Virus record (IMG/VR): IMGVR_UViG_3300001528_000174
Span: 128,001-180,499 of that record
Length of the DNA stretch: 52,499 bases
From: a virus
Lineage: Duplodnaviria > Heunggongvirae > Uroviricota > Caudoviricetes
Direction: 5' to 3' (one strand)
A program made the translations under genes and the position numbers. Shown in pieces: positions 3-16,876 of the stretch. A model generated the notes under the pieces. The model was given only the letters and a program-made list of their open reading frames with translations. It made no database searches and was not told the DNA's origin. How positions within the stretch are numbered: position 1 is the first letter of the stretch; each line of letters starts with the position of its first letter.

Positions 3-1046
3 AAAGGAGTATTACTTGATTTATATAAACCAGATGAGCATGGTGAACAATTTTCTTTAACTACTTATAATTCTACAATACTCCCTGGACAAGTACTTCG
101 TTCTGTAAATGTCCAAATAGATAATAAAGCTTTTACTAATCAAATTTTAAATTTTAATTCTGAACAAGGTTTAAAATTTATATAGAAAAATAATAGTACT
201 GTAGATATTACTTAGTTAGATAGTTTAGAAAAGATATTAGTAACAGCTGCTAAAGTATAGGAAGGGTTAAATAAAGGAATTCAGGAAAATTTAACTGAAT
301 TTGTTAATAACCTTAATAACTATAATTATTACTATGTCAATAATGTAGACCAGAGTAAAGGTATGTAGCATATCATTCAATTATAGGAAATATCAAATAT
401 AAAAAGCAATGCTAATAGTCCTATTGGGTGGGTGTCTATGCCTTAGAGATTAACTTATTTTGCTAATAAAATAGAATCTAGGTTTGGAATACCTACATAG
501 GTTTTAAATAAATAGGCTATATCTTAGAATTATGGAGAACAATTTACTGATAAAAAAGCTTTTATTAATAATAACGAAATAATTATTAATGGAGAACTGG
601 CAACTAAATAGGATGTAGCGCATGAATATATGCATATATTTATGGGTATTGTTAAAAGCCAACCTGATTTGCAGGAAGATTATCTAACTCTATTACAAGA
701 TTTAGTAGAAAATACTGAACAAGGATAGTCTTAGTTATAGCAATATCAAAATGTATCAGAATATTCTGATATGGCTAGAATTGATTTATATGAAGAAGTT
801 GCTGCTAATATAATGGGAGAATATTTATCAGCATTAAATCCTAATACTTATCCACAAATATTTAGAGAATTTAGAAAATTTATTCAAAATAATACCTTTA
901 ATTAGGATTTAAAAGAAAATATACTAGATTTCACTGATTTTGCTGTAAATAATACTTATAAAATAAATACTAACAATAAAGAACGTTAGATTACTAATTT
1001 TTTATAGACAGCACTACAAAATAATATTATTAAAGAAATTTGTTAA
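3..1046 (+). CDS. C-terminal part of a large TAG-recoded virion/cargo-type protein with a zincin-like HExxH motif (5' truncated by the window)
   Basis: Frame starting at base 3 has no TAA/TGA until TAA 1044-1046 but about 15 in-frame TAGs. It translates ...DVAHEYMHIFMG...EEVAA (HExxH plus downstream E). Its stop overlaps the next ATG (TAATG). Confidence 0.85.
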
Positions 1047-4000
1047 TGAGTTGTAAATATTTTTTTAATGAGATATCTAAAAAATCGGAAAAAACATATT
1101 AGATACTTCAATAGCTTGTTGGGGATAAAGGTTTATCGTATTTTGAATTACATAATTTAATTTCAGATAATTTAGATTTAACTAATTATAGTGATACTCT
1201 ATTTTCTGCCTAGGAGGATGTTTCTAAAAAATTAACTGAACTAAAAGTATCACACCCTATATTTGATAAATGGGGTAATATAGTAGCAAATGACCCTGAA
1301 TCGGGTGTTTATAATATCTAGCATTTTTTAGATAGTCAATATTTTGACCCAGAGTAGAAGTATTATACTAAAATGAATGATGAAAATTATAAAGATGCTT
1401 TACGAAAAAGAGGATATACAGAGGATTAGATTAATCAAGAATTTGCTCGTTTTAAATTAATTGGAGCTGATGCCTATGCTATTCACTACATAGTTAATAA
1501 TTTAACAATTCCTCATGTAAATGACCCATATACTTGGAATGTATAGGTAGCTACAGTTATTGGTAATAAAATAACAGAATTAGAGCAAGAAATTACTTCT
1601 AGAAAAATAAAAAAACAAAATACTGAATTTCAAGAATCTTTGTTAAATAGTTTTCATAGAGTTTTAGATAGTATAGGTAATCATAATAATTTAGGTTCTC
1701 AAATTTTACAGTCTTTAATTACCACTGCTAAAGAAAATAAAATGGGAACTAATACTAAAAGAATAAGAAATCTTAGTGTTACCCAAGAAATTAAAAATTC
1801 TAATATAAGACTTCGTGGACATATTGATTAGATAATAGTTGATAAATATGGAAATATTTCTATTTATTAGAATGTGGTTTCTAGTTAGTCTTATGATAAC
1901 TGGATAAAAATTAAAAAATAGAAGTTTGAATTAGAATTATCTTTTTTAAAGAAAATGTTACAATCTAAGGGGTTTAATGCTAATAGAATTAGCTTACATT
2001 TAATTCCTACTTAGATAGTATATAATGATGATGGTACTATAAAAGATATTCGTATGGATAAACCTAAAAATATTTAGGTTCAAGGAGAATATCAATTAGG
2101 AGATATTGATGATGCTGTAGAAGCTTATATAGATGCTCCCGATTTAAGCTTTGGAAATATTGACGATAAAGTTCAGACTGCTTTAGATAAAACTAACTTA
2201 ATGTTTTTAAATGCTAATATTACTTAGAATAGAATAACTAAAACTATTGATAGTTATATAGCTTCTCAATATAATCCTAGAACAGGTACTGGAGATATTA
2301 TAAAATTAGAAGATGACCTCCAAGGATATAATTACGCGGTAACTATTGACGGAGAAGTCCATAAAATAAAAGAAGATTCTTTACCAAAAAATAATGAGGA
2401 ATTAAAAGAACTTTTACAAAAAGAGTTTGATAAAAAAGAGAAACAAATAAATACGGTACTTGACACTTTAGTTAAATAGATTCAAGTTGCTCGACATAAT
2501 CCTGAAAATACTACATTTGAAGCTTTTAAGAGAAGTAATTATAGGTTAATTTCTTTACTAGGTAAATATATTGAACCTTCTTATATAGCTGGCGAACCTG
2601 TATATGAATGGAATATTATTAATAATGAAGCTTTAAGAAATGCTCATATTTTATTATTCAAGAATAGTAAGGGACAAATTGACGTAGTTTCACTTGCTAA
2701 TTATAATTTATATGAAGTAAATAAACACAGAAGTAATGGTTCTAATATTATGAATAGTTATATTATGGATAATCAATCAGGTGATTTATATAACTATGAT
2801 TGTTCATTCGGGCATATGGAATAGATAAGAACTTTAAATATACTTAATGAAATATTACCTTCTTTAGATGGTAATTTTAAATTAGGAAACATTCAAATAA
2901 TATCTACATATGGTAGAGGTCAAGGAATGTATAGTACGGCTTCTGATTTAATTACTAAATATTATTCTCCAATATTAGAAGTAGTAAATAAATATAATAA
3001 TGAAATTAAATTAAATAATAATTTTGGAAATATTAATTTTATAGATTAGTATGATTTAGTTTCTAGTTATATAGATGATTTTTTAAAATTATCATCATAT
3101 CTTGATACTAATCCTATTCGATATAAATTAAAAGATGCTAAGGAGCAATTAGAAAATGCTAACTCTGAATCAGCTAAACGTACTGCTTTACAATCATTTT
3201 TAGAATATTTATAGAATAATCCTGTTATAAAAAATTTATAGAATGGAACGTCTGATATAACTTATGCTAATGAAAATACTAAAATGTTAGCTAATATATA
3301 TAATCAAGCTTGTTATGAATATACTAAGTTAATGGGTGTATATGTAGAAACTAAATATAAACCTTTAAGCTGGCTTGAAAGTAATATAATGAAACCTGAT
3401 GCTAATTCGGATAATAATTATAGAACTATTAAATAGATTGTTACCCAAACTACTTTTAGAGCTAATGAAAGAGTAATGAATGCAGCTAATCCTATTTAGA
3501 ATTTTACTAGAGAATATTTTAATAAAGCGGGGTATTCTACAGTTGAAGGTTCCTTAATAGGAGATGAAAATAAATATTTTGATAATATGTTTATGCATAA
3601 TGATAAGGGGGAAAAAATTATGATGTTTAAAAACCCTTATAAAGATGATGCTGCTAACTATATGACTAATAGTGAAAAAACTTTCCTAAAAAGAGCTTTA
3701 TTTGAATTTGCTAAAGTAACTTACTCTATGCATAATAAATCTTTTGATTTTACAAGCTATGAGGATCCAGAATTTGCTAAAGCAGTTGAAGAATAGGAGG
3801 TTCTTCGTTATGTTCCTTTAAAAAGAGCTTCTAGTACTTTATCGGTTAAATCTTTAAAAAATGGAGTGAACCAATTCTTTGATACTATTAAAGGATTTAC
3901 TTCCAAAGAAGATAACGTATTTGCCAAATGGTAGCAAACTCTTGATAAAGAAGGTGCTAATTTATCAATGCGAGATAGATTTGAGAACGGGGTAACTAAT

Positions 4001-5704
4001 CCTTTTGCTTCTAGTATGTCTTCTGATAAAAATGTGAGATAGGAAATATTAAATTAGCATACTAACGATTATTGGGAAACTAATATACCTGCATTACTAT
4101 ATAGTTATATAAACTCTAACGTACTAACTCAGGAATTTAATAAGTCATTAATTTTAGTAAAAGCTGTAATGTTTTAGGCGAAGATGCTAGCTTTAAATGC
4201 TGGAAATCTTAAATATCTTGAATGGTTTTAGAAAGAAGCCGATAAATATTTAACTGTTAATGTGTTTAATGATACTATATTGGAAGATACTTCTAAAAAA
4301 TTCTTTACAGTAATTAATCCAGTGAAACATTTTGTGTCTAAGATGTTTTTAAGTTTTAATATTAAATCAATGTTTAGAGATACTTTAGAAGGATTCCAAT
4401 AGAACTACATTAAAGCAGCTACTAAATATGGTACTGATATTTCTACAGCTAATTTAACTAAAGCTTATAATATAGTAATGAAAGGTTGTTGTTCTAATGT
4501 ACGTACTATATCTTTATTAAATCAATTATGTATTAAATACGGTTTATCTAATTTAGATTTTGCCAATATTGCTAATGGTTTAAGAACAGATAGAAGTGGA
4601 ATTAAACATTGGGACGATATAGCTTATAATACTATGAAGCGCCCTGACTTTCTAAATAGAATGACTTTATTTGTAGCTAGGGCTTTACAAGATGGAACTT
4701 GGGATGCTCTATCAATAGATAAAGATGGTAAAATTAAATATGAGTGGAAAAAAGATAAAAGATTTTAGGATATTACAAAATCTCCTAAAGGTAGTGAAAA
4801 ATATAATAAAGCTAAATCTTTATATTTTTCCGCTATTAGAGCTTATAACAGAGATCATATCGAATCTCCTATTAGCTATAATGATGACTTACCATCTCCT
4901 TATTCGTTAGAAGATATTGATAAAATCAAACAAGTTGCAGATAGTATTTACGGTAATTATGATAGAGGAGGTAGAGCTATGGCTGAAAATATGGCTATAG
5001 GAATGACTTTTGCTTAGTTTACTACTTATTCTAATGGTATTATAGCCAACTGGTTTGGAAAGAAACGAGTTATAAAAGGAGATAAAATGGAGTAGCAAAA
5101 GAATGAAGCTGGATAGCCTTTATATTTTCTAGAAGATGGAACTATTACTACTGAAAATACTGGAGTTCCAGTAATGGATGGTATACCTATGGTAGTACAG
5201 GGAGTATTTCATACATTCGGTGATATATTAGGAATATTATCAGATACTAATTAGGATGATAAAATCAAAAAAATAAAAGAAATGTTAAAAGCTAATCCTA
5301 ATGATGCTGCTAATATTAGAAAAGCCTGGACTAGTTTATTATGGGCACTATTTATGGGAATTCTGTTTAAAGAAGTATTTGACCCGGGTTATAAGGAATT
5401 ATTAAAGTCTTATGATAGTGATGACTATTTAGCCAGCGCTATGACTTATGTTATGTATAATGGAGGTAAATAGTCTACTTAGAATTTCCATGAATTTTTA
5501 GTTATTCCAGAATATTTTGCAGGAACTGGAGATATGAGTAATGGTATGACTATACCTTTTCAAAATTATCCAACATCATTAGTTAAGAATCTTTTTAATA
5601 CAGCTACTAATCCTGATAAGCATTGGGGTGAATATATTGTTAATAATATTCCTTCATTATCTATGTTTAAACAAGCAACTTAGGCTTATTATAAAGAAAA
5701 TTAA
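1046..5704 (+). CDS. Large (1552 aa) TAG-recoded protein, probable crAss-like virion cargo/ejection protein with a degenerate PD-(D/E)xK-like segment and C-terminal hydrophobic helices
   Basis: ATG at 1046 (MSCKYFFNE...) runs to TAA 5702-5704 in one frame, interrupted only by about 35 TAGs by my count. ORF-track fragments 1640, 3587, 4478 and 5282 all lie in this frame. Motif RLRGHIDxIIVDKYGNISIY; hydrophobic LLWALFMGILF near the C-terminus. Confidence 0.85.
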
Positions 5705-13388: not shown

Positions 13389-13741
13389 TCACTTAGCATA
13401 TCAATACCCCAGTTACTTATGACTTTTTCGTCTATTTTTTCGGCGAACATATCAATACCTTCTCTTTGAGAATCATACCAATCATCATATTGTTCATCTT
13501 CAGATTCTTCTAAAGTATCGTCATATTCAAAGTCATCTCCAAGATAACTATAAGCATCAACACATTCATCTACTAGTTCACTCCACTCATCCTGAGACAT
13601 ATGTTCTATAGGATTTTCATCACTTTGTACAACTCTATAAATAGCTGCTGTACAAGCTACTGGGTATTGAGTAATTATTAACCACCAATTTCTGTCTTTT
13701 AATACTTGTTCTTCAGTTAATATCATAATTAATGAATCCAA
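13373..13741 (-). CDS. Very acidic hypothetical protein
   Basis: 122 aa, D/E-rich. Confidence 0.6.
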   Translation of the reverse strand: MDSLIMILTEEQVLKDRNWWLIITQYPVACTAAIYRVVQSDENPIEHMSQDEWSELVDECVDAYSYLGDDFEYDDTLEESEDEQYDDWYDSQREGIDMFAEKIDEKVISNWGIDMLSDWACK

Positions 13742-16700
13742 TAATTAGGTAATGTTCCATCTTTACATCTAGAAATATCTGCATCTAGTTTACATCTTGT
13801 ACAGAATATCTCTCCAGCCCTAACCATAATAGCATGAAGTCTAGTAGCTACTTCTTCAGCTATTTCTGTAGGAGCTTCACAATTAATTTCGTCATACGGC
13901 GTAACTGTGATTAAAACCTTATTAAAAAGATTATTTTCTAATATCCATTTAAAGAAATAAATCATACTAACCTTATAACATAAAGCTCCAGTATGTTGTA
14001 TTCTATAATTTATACTATTCCTTTCACACTCACCCTTCTTTTTAAAGAAATCTCTAACTTCTTGTACAGTTTCACAGTTAGGAGCTTCTTTTTTCATTTC
14101 CCGATAATACTTCCAAAATTCTTTATCTTTCATTTTTTCTTGCATCATACGTAAAGATTCAAAATCATATATATGAGCACGATACTTACTTATTGGGTTT
14201 AGAAGTATATACCCTTTTTCCATTACTATTTTTCTACAATATTCTTGGTATTTAGCTAAACCTGAGAAACCTGACATATAATTATCATAGATTTTCTTAG
14301 CTTCCTCTATAGAAATACCTTTATTTTGATGAATAGTGTTAAAATCTCCTCCATAATTGATCGCGATATAGGCTAACAGCAATAACCTATGGACTATATC
14401 TTCATCATTTAGATGTGCGGTACTCATAGCTGGTAATTAAGAGGACTAAACCTCTCCAGTAGTCTCTGCACCTTTAGAAAGTGTACTTTCTACTTGGCTC
14501 ATGATTGGCTCGGTCTTAGCTTTCCATGAATTCTCCGCATTTGCATAAGAGAGTTTCCAACTCTTAGGAGCTCGCTTAAAATATAAACCCTTATAAGCCT
14601 TACCATCTTTAATATGGTTAGCAATTTTAGAAGGGTCTAATGACCCGGTTCCATTTTTACGTAATTTCATTGGTAAATTATTAAACTCAGATTTACTATA
14701 TCCCACTAAATCTGAACTACACCAAAAAGTATTTAACCATTTGTGATTTCTATCATAGACCAATACATAATCTGCTCTATCTTTAGTTAGTTGTGAGTTT
14801 TTAATATGAACTTCTTTCATAGCCGCCGATACTCCATTTTTCTTTGGAGCGTGCATTTTTTTTTAGTTTGCTCTTCAGTCATTTTGATACCTTTGTTCCA
14901 AGGAATGCTTCCTTTAGCTTTACCTCTACTTTCAGCATACTTTTGCTTATATAAACTAAATTCTTCTGGAGTCATAGATTCTTTTAGTTCTTTCCACAAT
15001 CTTTTATGAGTTTCAGAACTTTTCATTTTAGAAGAGGTATTTAACATAGGAGACCTGCTAGGGGTAGGATTTTCATTATATCCATTATTATATGCATCAT
15101 ATTTTTCAATATAATATGCTTCTTTATCTAGTAAAATCTCTTCTTTTTCTACTATTTCCAAAATTTCTGCTACGAATTCATCAGTGCCATATTTATTAAA
15201 AGCATTTTGCATCTCATGACTATGATGGTTATTGGTATTTAATTTACTCAAATGCTGCTTCCATCTTGATCTGAAAGATTTCCATGTACTTCCTACATAG
15301 GACTTTCCATTTTCTAAGCAGAATATTCTATAAATTCCTTTTTTACGAATATCCTCTAGTGTTCTTGTGTTATTCTAACTTTCATAATTATATATTTATA
15401 TAAATATAGTTAGAATTAGGCAATTACCAAACTCAAAAAATGTTAAAAAAGATGAATTTATATTTACTCAATTCCTTTAGCTTCTTGACGGAGGTGATGA
15501 TACTTTTCCTTAATATCAGTAATCTTGGTATCTCTAGGTATTTGGTCAGGGTAGCTCATATAGGCAGTTAGAGCATGTAAATCTCCACTTCCTTCCATTA
15601 ACTCATGTATAAGAGCTTTATCATTAGAAATTGAAGCCATAATATATGATTCTTGTCCCGAATAATCAATGGAAATCCAAGAATTACCTTTTTCAGCTAT
15701 AAAACAACTTCTAGTTTCAGCATCTGCTGGAAGATTAAGAAAATTTACGTATTCTACTTTAGCACTTTTATCTTTTCCACCACTAGAAATTCTGGCAGTA
15801 TTAGTTCCTAATTGATTAAATTTAGTATATATTCTACCTGTTTCAGAATTTATTTGGTCAAGCCAGTTTTGCCCATAAGTAGAACATACTTTTTGTGCTT
15901 CTTTATAGTCAAGATATATTGGAAGAATAGGAAAATCTTTAGCTTGTGGTTCTAGAAGTTTAGCATCTACAGAATCTTTTAATTGTTTAGTTTTTTTATC
16001 AACTACTTTAGTATTAATACCGATAGCTTTGAATAAAGGAATTACTTGAGGAGCACTATTCCAATTTATGGTACACTGAGGGTCAGTATTATATCCACTA
16101 AATAAATCTCCTTGTAAATCTACCATAGTGAATCGTTTATCATCTCCATAATTTTCAACTACCCAAGTATTTAAATTCTGTAATGCAGGTTCTAGACGTT
16201 GTTTGTCTTTGACCATTTTAGCTTTCCATTTTTCAACGTCTAATTTAATTCCACACCATTCCATATAAGCTAGTGGTATAACAAACCTATTTTCTAGTTG
16301 GACTGCCTTTACTAAATCTTCTTTTTCCAAAGTTTTTATTTGAGCATTCATTAAATCTTCCAAATCTGGAACATCGTTAGCTGCATAAATTATAACTTCT
16401 TCAGTTAAACCTACCTTAGTAATTTTTCCCCGAACAGTCTTATCCATATATTTATTTAGATATTTTTGTTCAAGAGTTTTTAAGTCAGCATGATAAGTTC
16501 CCCTAGGATAACCTAAATACAAAATTTGCTCTCCCAACATAACATCATATACTTTTACTAATATAATATTATGTTTAAAGAAAAACTGTATATCAAATTT
16601 AGCATTAGCCAGAATATATAAAACATTGGGGTCTTCTAATATTTCTTTATATTCTTTTATATCTATAGTAGTGCAATCAATAACAACTTGATTCTCCTTA

Positions 16701-16876
16701 TTACCTATCTGAACAGTTAATAATGCTTTAGTATGAGGATTTAATCCCATAGTCTCAGTATCTAATCCTCTAATATTTCCCATAGAATCTATAATTTCTT
16801 TACTTTTTTCTATAGAAATACATTCATATTTAGAGGATTTAAATAATGCTTTAGTTCCTGTTACTAAATAAATCAT
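13729..16876 (-). CDS. polA: Family A DNA polymerase, spliced: exon 1 16876-15466, exon 2 14366-13729 (682 aa)
   Basis: 3'-5' exonuclease motifs DTET, NAKFD, YAAND; motif A IDYSGQE; splicing restores motif B RQEAKGIE-F-AINYG; NYRIQ; motif C variant PYDE. Confidence 0.92.
14446..15385 (-). pseudogene. Intron-encoded GIY-YIG homing endonuclease, frameshifted twice
   Basis: KKGIYRIFCLENGKSYVGST...RSRWKQH...E...GYN. ATG 15385 is out of frame with the GIY-YVG frame; a second shift at an A9 run (about 14846-14854) splits ORFs 14817-15251 and 14446-14856. Confidence 0.8.
15401..15431 (-). promoter_or_regulatory. Bacteroidota-type promoter-like site for the intron endonuclease
   Basis: TTTG-N19-TATATTTA, close to the Bacteroides TTTG-N19/21-TAnnTTTG consensus, 15 nt upstream of the ATG. 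Confidence 0.5.

What the first reader, a model, noticed from the sequence alone, without database searches (positions are those of the whole stretch)
14367..15465. Group I intron in the essential DNA polymerase appears to end in A instead of the canonical terminal G
Seen: exon 1 ends GAG-T. The IGS 5'-GCGAGCUC pairs GAGU (U-G at the 5' site) and exon-2 UCGC (P10). That junction gives T|TC-GCG-ATC-AAT-TAT-GGA and restores motif B with correct spacing (RQEAKGIEFAINYG). The base before TCGCG is A (...UAGCCUAUA). Splicing after the nearest in-frame G gives KGIESINYG, one residue short and lacking the Phe. Known: terminal G is nearly invariant; the Coxiella 23S intron is a rare terminal-A case with reduced splicing. 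The other two introns here end in G. Inference: slow or factor-dependent splicing could throttle polymerase output.
Basis: partly seen in the sequence, partly recalled or inferred. Interest (0 to 1): 0.8.

Follow-up and report, generated by a model that had tools for sequence, protein, structure and literature searches.

The report
Phage polymerase intron ending in A
The only DNA polymerase gene of a 180-kb crAss-like gut phage is split by a self-splicing group I intron whose last base is A instead of the near-universal G, and a second, diverged copy from another sample also ends in A, so the oddity is real and inherited.

Summary
Confirmed. On the minus strand polA exon 1 ends GAG-U at 15466, a 1099-nt intron runs 15465..14367, and exon 2 starts UCGCG at 14366. 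Joining them gives AKGIEFAINYG, identical to intronless relatives.

The intron has a complete group I core. On 10 homologues 98.8% of cells pair, 16 pairs show compensatory changes, and 0 of 500 shuffles do as well. The P7 guanosine pocket is canonical. The 8-nt guide GCGAGCUC lies 890 nt downstream of the 5' splice site, behind a decayed GIY-YIG endonuclease gene.

I found 13 distinct homologous introns at exactly this site, and all end in G. The window ends in A. So does one independent Logan contig (L204), whose intron is about 95% identical but whose polA exon 1 is only 81% identical.

The two A-ending cores differ at 9 positions, and none breaks a helix. Both, unlike all 13 G-ending copies, have P9 base-paired flush up to the last base.

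An assembly error is therefore very unlikely, and the A-ending intron appears to be under selection to fold. Natural A-ending group I introns are rare but known (Coxiella 23S, hexacoral ND5-717). Slower splicing as a polymerase throttle remains untested.

The parts
15466..16876 (-). polA exon 1: 3'-5' exonuclease domain and the N-terminal part of the polymerase domain. It ends ...RQEAKGIE plus the first base of the Phe codon. The last four bases, GAGU (15469-15466), form the 5' strand of P1.
   Evidence: Translation. PF00476 match. 88% aa identity to the intronless MT835492.
14367..15465 (-). Group I intron, 1099 nt, subgroup IA-like. First base A15465, last base A14367 (the omega position).
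   Evidence: Boundaries come from intronless relatives, from the P1/P10 guide, and from 14 homologous introns at the same site.
15454..15465 (-). First 12 intron bases, AAAUAUAAAUUC. They can pair with 14590-14579 (GGGUUUAUAUUU) as a P1 extension that closes the 890-nt loop L1.
   Evidence: Duplex energy -10.6 kcal/mol, 0 of 200 shuffles as good, in the window and in L204. The pairing is weak in the G-ending homologues. This helix is inferred, not shown.
14437..15385 (-). Decayed GIY-YIG homing endonuclease gene lying in L1 and running into the ribozyme core. ATG at 15385-15383. A 1-nt deletion between 15360 and 15359. Two extra bases at or next to the A9 run (14864-14856) shift the frame. Stop TAG at 14448-14446, or TAA at 14439-14437 if TAG is read as Q.
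   Evidence: PF01541 match, E 5.8e-13. tblastn against the intact 334-aa homologue of L180 splits into two frames. Alignment with L204 shows the indels. Translations.
14568..14575 (-). Internal guide sequence GCGAGCUC. GCUC pairs with exon-1 GAGU to form P1, with U.G at the splice site. GCGA pairs with exon-2 UCGC to form P10.
   Evidence: Read from the sequence. Invariant in 10 of 10 aligned homologues.
14391..14564 (-). Ribozyme core.
- P2: 14564-14560 / 14554-14550
- P3: 14539-14533 / 14422-14416
- P4: 14529-14524 / 14504-14499
- P5: 14520-14518 / 14510-14508
- P6: 14498-14496 / 14472-14470
- P6a: 14492-14486 / 14481-14475
- P7: 14466-14460 / 14396-14391, with A14465 bulged and the G-binding pair G14464-C14392
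- P7.1/7.1a: 14459-14430
- P8: 14415-14412 / 14406-14403
- J8/7 AAGAUA: 14402-14397
   Evidence: Covariation count on alignment A1: 98.8% of cells paired, 16 pairs changed on both sides, 0 of 500 shuffles reach this, slid controls 36-45% paired.
14368..14390 (-). P9 with P9.0: an 8-bp hairpin, AUAGGUUA / UAGCCUAU. It leaves no unpaired base between P7 and P9, or between P9 and the last intron base.
   Evidence: Folding of this segment in all 15 family members gives 0 unpaired flanking bases in the two A-ending copies and 1-3 on each side in all 13 G-ending copies.
14367..14367 (-). The omega position, last base of the intron: A. It is T on the plus strand.
   Evidence: Also A in the independent contig L204. 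G in 13 distinct homologues.
13729..14366 (-). polA exon 2. It starts UC GCG AUC AAU UAU GGA, completing F-A-I-N-Y-G of motif B, and runs to the stop at 13731-13729.
   Evidence: Translation. PF00476 match. Relatives.

Best explanation
This is a genuine group I (subgroup IA-like) self-splicing intron in the motif-B Phe codon of the phage's only DNA polymerase gene.

How it is built:
- P1 is formed over a long range. GAGU at the end of exon 1 pairs with GCUC of a guide that lies 890 nt downstream. The loop between them holds a now-dead GIY-YIG homing endonuclease gene.
- The other half of the guide, GCGA, pairs with the first four bases of exon 2 (P10).
- The guanosine pocket in P7 is canonical, so the first step should use free guanosine as usual.

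The last intron base is A, not G. This is a real, inherited state that arose once from a G-ending ancestor. It is now carried by at least two diverged phage polA genes.

Exons are most likely still joined at GAGU|UCGC, which gives the conserved AKGIEFAINYG. I infer that the 3' site is held in place by P10 and by an unusually strong P9.0/P9 helix, fully paired right up to the terminal A, and that this partly makes up for poor binding of A in a G pocket. The second step is probably slower than in the G-ending sisters.

Shown: the boundaries, the fold, the canonical pocket, the terminal A in two copies, and the derived state. Inferred: that it splices in vivo, compensation by P9.0, and reduced rate.
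For: Boundaries:
- The intronless MT835492 and IMG/VR relatives fix the protein across the junction.
- Fourteen homologous introns sit at the identical site, with the guide conserved (one reads GCGUGCUC). The 5' exon ends ...GAGU|AA in all ten copies whose 5' splice site lies on the contig.

Fold:
- 52 pairs, 98.8% of cells paired, 16 pairs with compensatory change, 0 of 500 shuffles as good, slid controls about 40%.
- P7, its bulged A and the G-C pocket pair are invariant.

The terminal A is real:
- L204, a Logan contig from another run, ends ...GCCUAUA|UCGC.
- Its intron is about 95% identical to the window's (alignment). Its exon 1 differs at 235 of 1242 nt and is an open frame.

Selection on the A-ending ribozyme:
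- The two cores differ at 9 of 209 positions.
- Two of the changes are compensatory pairs: P3 C-G to U-A at 14537/14418, and P8 U-A to C-G at 14413/14405.
- Two keep pairing in P9, three lie in loops, and none breaks a helix.
- Meanwhile the endonuclease gene carries different lethal lesions in each copy.

Derived state: window and L204 form a clade with 98/96 support among G-ending introns.

Clade-specific flush P9: 0 unpaired flanking bases, against 1-3 in all 13 G-ending copies.

Essential host gene: one polA and no polB in the 180-kb record.

Precedent for correct ligation with a terminal A: hexacoral ND5-717 yields perfectly ligated exons in vivo at lower efficiency (PMC6545197). The Coxiella 23S intron is known to me here only from its title, as cited in PMC3428280.
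Against: - No RNA evidence: spliced junction reads were not obtainable.
- Only two A-ending copies are known, and L204 stops 4 nt into exon 2, so its exon 2 is unseen.
- The P7 pocket shows no change that would favour A. From my own knowledge of Tetrahymena mutants (Price and Cech 1988; Been and Perrotta 1991, the latter cited in PMC2588497), a G-to-A change at this position strongly impairs exon ligation.
- Rfam finds no group I match here.
- The compensating role of the flush P9 rests on a correlation in a single clade.
Confidence: 0.8

Rival explanations
1. The A is real, but the intron is splicing-defective or mis-splices, for example at the next G (14364), which would give KGIESINYG. On this view these genomes are crippled variants that persist through co-infection or recent mutation.
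For: A canonical G pocket with a terminal A is expected to ligate poorly (own knowledge of Tetrahymena and td mutants). The endonuclease gene is already decaying. No RNA data are available.
Against: - The A is shared by two copies whose host exons differ by 19% and are both open frames.
- Since they split, the ribozyme has fixed two compensatory pairs and no helix-breaking change, which implies selection for folding.
- polA is the only DNA polymerase in the record.
- The G14364 site has no P10 pairing and deletes the conserved Phe.
- The record is rated 100% complete.
Confidence: 0.1
2. The A at 14367 is a sequencing or assembly error, or a minority variant picked up by the assembler, and the true base is G.
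For: All 13 other homologues have G. The window's endonuclease remnant carries two extra bases at or next to a 9-A run, which can be an error signature. Reads could not be inspected.
Against: An independent assembly from another run (L204), 5% diverged in the intron and 19% in exon 1, has the same A in the same context. Neighbouring genes in the window are intact and tightly packed. The chance that an error falls on this one base in two assemblies is negligible.
Confidence: 0.05
3. The insert is not spliced at all, and the polymerase works as two separate polypeptides. The first would end at the UAA after GAG. The second would start at ATG 14427 inside the insert.
For: Exon 1 is followed at once by UAA, and an in-frame ATG (14427) opens a 232-aa frame running into exon 2.
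Against: - The break would cut the motif-B helix between K-G-I-E and F-A-I-N-Y-G.
- The ATG is TTG in L204.
- The insert has a covarying group I core and a guide that matches both exon ends.
- Relatives without the insert have one continuous gene.
Confidence: 0.02

Closest known systems
Coxiella burnetii 23S rRNA intron Cbu.L1917 (Raghavan et al. 2007, J Bacteriol 189:6572; seen here only as a title cited in PMC3428280)
   Same: A bacterial-world group I intron that lacks the canonical terminal G, according to the paper's title. That the terminal base is A and that the intron self-splices is my recollection.
   Different: It sits in rRNA, not a protein gene. It belongs to an unrelated intron family. 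No set of G-ending sister introns at the same site is known to me. I could not read the paper here.
Hexacoral mitochondrial ND5-717 group I intron (PMC6545197)
   Same: [quoted passage not shown]
   Different: It is an organellar, strictly vertically inherited, giant intron with genes in P8, removed by back-splicing. The phage intron is mobile-type, has its ORF in L1, and has close G-ending relatives.
Group I introns in phage family-A DNA polymerase genes (SPO1/SP82/Bastille, Pf-WMP3, phiL7, PhiI/W31; PMC3428280)
   Same: IA-type introns with homing endonuclease genes in conserved polymerase-domain sites. UAA sits at or just after the 5' splice site and acts as the exon-1 stop.
   Different: The published sites are 674, 676 and 881 in E. 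coli Pol I numbering. This one is in the motif-B Phe codon, equivalent to F762 by my own numbering. Those introns end in G as far as I know. Their endonucleases are of the HNH type in the cases I recall.
Intron-rich Zeta-group crAss-like phages (Yutin et al. 2021, PMC7886860)
   Same: Genomes of 145-192 kb, TAG read-through in late genes, and a high density of group I introns and inteins in core genes. The window fits: a 180-kb record with TAG=Q frames.
   Different: In the passages I read, that paper identified introns through their endonuclease domains. I saw no description there of ribozyme structures, splice sites or terminal bases.
Phage T4 td intron with I-TevI
   Same: A group IA intron that carries a GIY-YIG homing endonuclease gene in a phage DNA-metabolism gene (own knowledge; listed in PMC1995217).
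   Different: In td the ORF sits in the P6 loop and the guide follows the 5' splice site directly. Here the ORF lies in L1, runs 190 nt into the core, and ends in the P7.1 loop. td ends in G.

Membership tests
Group I self-splicing intron | Conserved core helices P3-P9, with the P3/P7 pseudoknot | tested here: met
   52 pairs, 98.8% of cells paired, 16 pairs with changes on both sides, 0 of 500 shuffles as good, slid controls 36-45%.
Group I self-splicing intron | Guanosine-binding site: a G-C pair in P7 next to a bulged base, with conserved J6/7 and J8/7 | tested here: met
   G-A(bulge)-GACUA pairs with UAGUCC, invariant in 10 of 10 sequences. J8/7 is AAGAUA. Assigning these bases to the pocket rests on my knowledge of Tetrahymena G264-C311.
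Group I self-splicing intron | The 5' splice site follows a U that forms a U.G wobble with an internal guide (P1) | tested here: met
   GAGU pairs with GCUC. The exon end and the guide are conserved in all homologues whose 5' site is on the contig.
Group I self-splicing intron | P10 pairing between the guide and the first bases of the 3' exon | tested here: met
   UCGC pairs with GCGA, directly next to P1 in the guide. UCGC starts exon 2 in all 15 family members.
Group I self-splicing intron | Last intron base is G (omega-G) | tested here: not met
   A at 14367 and in L204. G in 13 homologues.
Group I self-splicing intron | Match to the curated covariance model (Rfam Intron_gpI) | tested here: not met
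   No match at the gathering threshold or at E up to 10. The 890-nt insert in L1 and the model's limited reach for IA introns (my opinion) make this weak evidence.
Group I self-splicing intron | Self-splicing with guanosine, giving ligated exons | not testable with these tools
This needs RT-PCR or an in vitro assay.
Subgroup IA | An extra hairpin or hairpins (P7.1 with P7.1a or P7.2) between P7 and the 3' strand of P3 | tested here: met
   A 30-nt two-step hairpin at 14459-14430, with 3 pairs covarying. The subgroup definition is from my memory of Michel and Westhof 1990.
GIY-YIG homing endonuclease | GIY-YIG catalytic domain | tested here: met
   PF01541, E 5.8e-13, 49 bits against a cut-off of 22.6.
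GIY-YIG homing endonuclease | Intact reading frame | tested here: not met
   Two frameshifts relative to the 334-aa homologue of L180 and to L204.
Family A DNA polymerase | Polymerase domain with motif B, R-x-x-A-K-x-x-x-F-x-x-x-Y-G | tested here: met
   PF00476 matches both exons. The spliced junction gives RQEAKGIEFAINYG (with 13 and 20 for comparison).

The most novel reading that the evidence does not exclude
The A-ending clade may have evolved a structural way round the need for a terminal G. Its P9.0/P9 helix is fully base-paired and flush with both P7 and the last base, and it has a 12-bp P1 extension. Together these could pre-position the 3' splice site so that an unchanged guanosine pocket ligates exons efficiently with a terminal A. 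If so, this would be a natural, transferable design rule for G-independent 3' splice-site choice. The A-ending form would also have spread by homing between diverged phages while it was already A-ending.
Probability: 0.25. Interest if true: 0.7.

Novelty: new member of a known kind. Interest (0 to 1): 0.55.

Why it matters
The terminal G is one of the most conserved features of group I introns, because it occupies the same pocket as the guanosine cofactor in the second step. I know of only two natural exceptions, one in Coxiella rRNA and one in hexacoral mitochondria, and I know of no close G-ending sisters for either.

Here an A-ending intron sits in an essential phage gene and has 13 G-ending homologues at the same site. 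That is a ready-made natural comparison. Swapping the last base and the P9.0 flanks between sister introns would show directly what lets a G pocket work with A, and whether splicing rate limits polymerase supply.

The result also matters for annotation. In these intron-rich, recoded crAss-like genomes polA is called as two genes. The exact junction given here restores the real protein.

Tried and rejected
- Rfam at the gathering threshold and at E up to 10 found no group I match.
- A minimum-free-energy fold of the core did not recover the pseudoknotted core, so I did not use it.
No read pile-up or RNA junction check was possible, and read laying was not used.
- Exact-protein look-ups for the window's exon-1 frame, exon-2 frame and endonuclease fragment found nothing on record.
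- Pattern scans of IMG/VR for more A-ending copies found none. The one metagenome scan and the family pattern in IMG/VR gave only G-ending homologues.
- The third protein search, with the endonuclease N-terminal part, gave no further close relative besides L204.
- Alternative junctions were considered and rejected:
  - A same-length junction using G14373 gives AKGTYIAINYG, with the 5' site after A and no P10.
  - 3' sites after G14364 or G14362 give a residue lost or a frameshift.
  - A one-base shift either way gives a terminal U and a non-U 5' site.
- TAG=Q reading does not rescue the endonuclease frame.
- The close polA relatives L120, L123, L128, L129, L132, L134, L163 and L172 looked at first like copies of this intron. 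They carry a different intron 7 nt downstream.
- The Coxiella papers PMC2045182, PMC3187410 and PMC4104754 are not held.

Full report
**What the window is.** The window is the last 52.5 kb of a 180,499-nt IMG/VR virus record rated 100% complete. Its family-A DNA polymerase is 52-57% identical to those of crAss001 and IAS virus. Plus-strand genes at 3-5704 open only when TAG is read as an amino acid: one frame of 1554 aa has 36 in-frame TAGs. TGA=W does not open them. The record holds one polA, in two pieces, and no polB.

**Checking the observation.** On the minus strand the 470-aa frame 16876..15464 ends ...RQEAKGIE followed by UAA. The polymerase resumes at ...AINYGGDF.
- The intronless polA in MT835492, 88% identical, reads RQLAKKIEFGFNYGG without interruption.
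- Of 61 IMG/VR relatives, most have exactly one codon between the two matches. The closest ones read AKGIEFAINYG.
- So the removed stretch must be 1099 nt.
- I went through the other junctions. The only same-length solution that ends in G gives AKGTYIAINYG, has A at the 5' site and has no P10. Sites after G14364 or G14362 lose a residue or the frame. One-base shifts give a terminal U.
- The base at 14367 is A.

**It is a group I intron, and the fold is supported by covariation.** Rfam gives nothing. The last 210 nt nevertheless carry the classical elements, including GCAGAGACUAC and AAGAUAUAGUCC. The exon-2 frame called by gene finders starts inside the intron. Searching with it found relatives whose N-termini translate the same ribozyme core. 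Their contigs, plus pattern scans for the guide-P2 segment, gave homologous introns at the identical site.

An alignment of 10 of them (A1) supports P2, P3, P4, P5, P6, P6a, P7, P7.1/7.1a, P8 and P9:
- 98.8% of 520 cells are standard pairs.
- 16 of 52 pairs change on both sides.
- 0 of 500 shuffles reach these values.
- Sliding the partners by 1-3 columns drops pairing to 36-45%.

P7, with its bulged A and the G-C pair that I take to be the guanosine pocket, is invariant. The extra hairpin between P7 and the 3' strand of P3 places the intron in subgroup IA, by my memory of the classification.

**Unusual layout.** The guide GCGAGCUC (14575-14568) lies 890 nt downstream of the 5' splice site. 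The interval is loop L1 and holds a GIY-YIG homing endonuclease gene (PF01541). That gene runs on through the guide, P2-P7 and into the P7.1 loop. In L180 it is an intact 334-aa frame. In L181 most of it is deleted, so the guide lies 284 nt from the splice site. In the window the gene has a 1-nt deletion near its start and two extra bases at or next to a 9-A run, so it is a pseudogene. In the window and L204 the first 12 intron bases can pair with the 12 bases that end three bases before the guide (-10.6 kcal/mol, 0 of 200 shuffles). This closes L1 and leaves the P10 half of the guide in an internal loop.

**The terminal base across the family.** Thirteen distinct homologues end in G directly before UCGC: L180, L181, L183, L186, L187, L189, L190, L191, L192, L195, L196, L205 and L206.

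The window ends in A. So does L204, an 8.6-kb Logan contig from run SRR13434605. I found it through the endonuclease remnant, and it ends ...GCCUAUA|UCGC, four bases into exon 2.

L204 is not the same genome. Its intron is about 95% identical to the window's (alignment), but its polA exon 1 differs at 235 of 1242 nt (99 synonymous and 72 non-synonymous codons, open frame). Identity rises towards the splice site, and the last 34 nt are identical. An intron far more alike than its host gene fits spread by homing. Stronger conservation near motif B could also contribute to that gradient. In a maximum-likelihood tree of the 15 cores, window and L204 form a clade (98/96 support) among G-ending introns. 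The A is therefore a single derived change that has since been inherited.

**Is the A-ending ribozyme still under selection?** The two A-ending cores differ at 9 of 209 positions:
- C-G to U-A in P3 (14537/14418) and U-A to C-G in P8 (14413/14405), both compensatory.
- A-U to G.U and U.G to C-G in P9.
- Three changes in L5, J7.1/3 and L9.
- None breaks a pair.

Over the same time the endonuclease gene picked up different disabling lesions in each copy. The window has two frameshifts. L204 has TAA at codon 7 and TAG in place of a Trp codon. This pattern is what one expects of a ribozyme that must still fold because its host gene is essential. It argues against both an assembly error and a dead intron.

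**A structural correlate.** I folded the segment between P7 and the last base in all 15 members. All 13 G-ending introns have 1-3 unpaired bases on each side of P9. Both A-ending introns have none. Three extra Watson-Crick pairs (AUA or GUA with UAU) make P9.0/P9 one continuous helix of 8-9 bp, flush with P7 and with the terminal A. The A-ending clade also has a shortened P8. I read the strong P9.0, together with P10, as the likely means of holding the 3' site in the pocket when the base itself binds poorly. This is an inference from one clade.

**Comparison with what is known.**
- A terminal A is rare but documented. [quoted passage not shown]
- One Coxiella 23S intron 'lacks the canonical Omega G' according to the title cited in PMC3428280. 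I could not read that paper.
- Published phage polA introns sit at sites 674, 676 and 881 in E. coli numbering. This one is in the motif-B Phe codon.
- Relatives of this phage carry a different, G-ending intron only 7 nt downstream, so motif B holds two adjacent insertion sites.
- High intron density in large crAss-like genomes is known. I did not find terminal bases or ribozyme structures discussed in the passages I read.

**Verdict.** The observation and the structural interpretation are confirmed and strengthened. The A is real, derived, inherited and carried by a ribozyme that is still constrained. What remains open is whether splicing is slow and whether that matters to the phage. Nothing here tests that, because reads and RNA data were not available. 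This is a new and well-controlled member of a very small known class, not a new kind of element.

Noticed in passing
window 3-5704 (+): Late-type genes open only if TAG is read as an amino acid: 1040-5704 gives 1554 aa with 36 in-frame TAGs, and 3-1046 has 16. TGA=W does not open them. ARAGORN found no tRNA gene, and so no suppressor tRNA, in this window.
   Followed up: partly
L120, L134 (272 nt, no ORF); L123, L128, L129, L132 (about 1230 nt); L172, L163: Close polA relatives (90-95% aa) lack this intron. They carry a different, G-ending group I intron 7 nt downstream, after the second base of the Ile/Phe codon of F-A-I-N-Y-G. Motif B therefore has two adjacent intron insertion sites.
   Followed up: partly
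window 14437-14575 (-); L180 2827-2962: The endonuclease reading frame runs about 140-190 nt into the ribozyme, through the guide, P2-P6 and P7, and stops in the P7.1 loop. The same bases therefore serve as protein code and as catalytic core. The window's TAG at 14448-14446 corresponds to CAG in L180.
   Followed up: partly
L181 / L182 2542-3047: A homologous intron in which most of the endonuclease gene has been deleted, leaving 105 aa. The guide lies 284 nt from the 5' splice site and the core is untouched. This is a natural mini-intron.
   Followed up: no
L195 1-1971 (Logan SRR25448492, 104-kb contig): This polA is split at least twice. A LAGLIDADG ORF, then a 92-aa polA fragment, then the GIY-YIG intron of this family (G-ending) lie within 2 kb.
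   Followed up: no
The flanks read ...GGA UUU GGU | ACUGUAAAAG ... AAUACUG | AAA UCU, so it does end in G. I did not examine its fold.
   Followed up: partly
window 14427 (-) and homologues: An in-frame ATG or GTG inside or just before the 3' strand of P8 makes gene callers start an 'exon-2 protein' inside the intron, for example MHGDDIVQ..., which translates the conserved GAUGAUAUAGUCC element. Searching for such N-termini is a handy way to find introns of this family in protein databases.
   Followed up: yes
L206 / L207: One G-ending homologue has the guide GCGUGCUC, which puts a U opposite the first exon-2 base and weakens P10 to three pairs.
   Followed up: no
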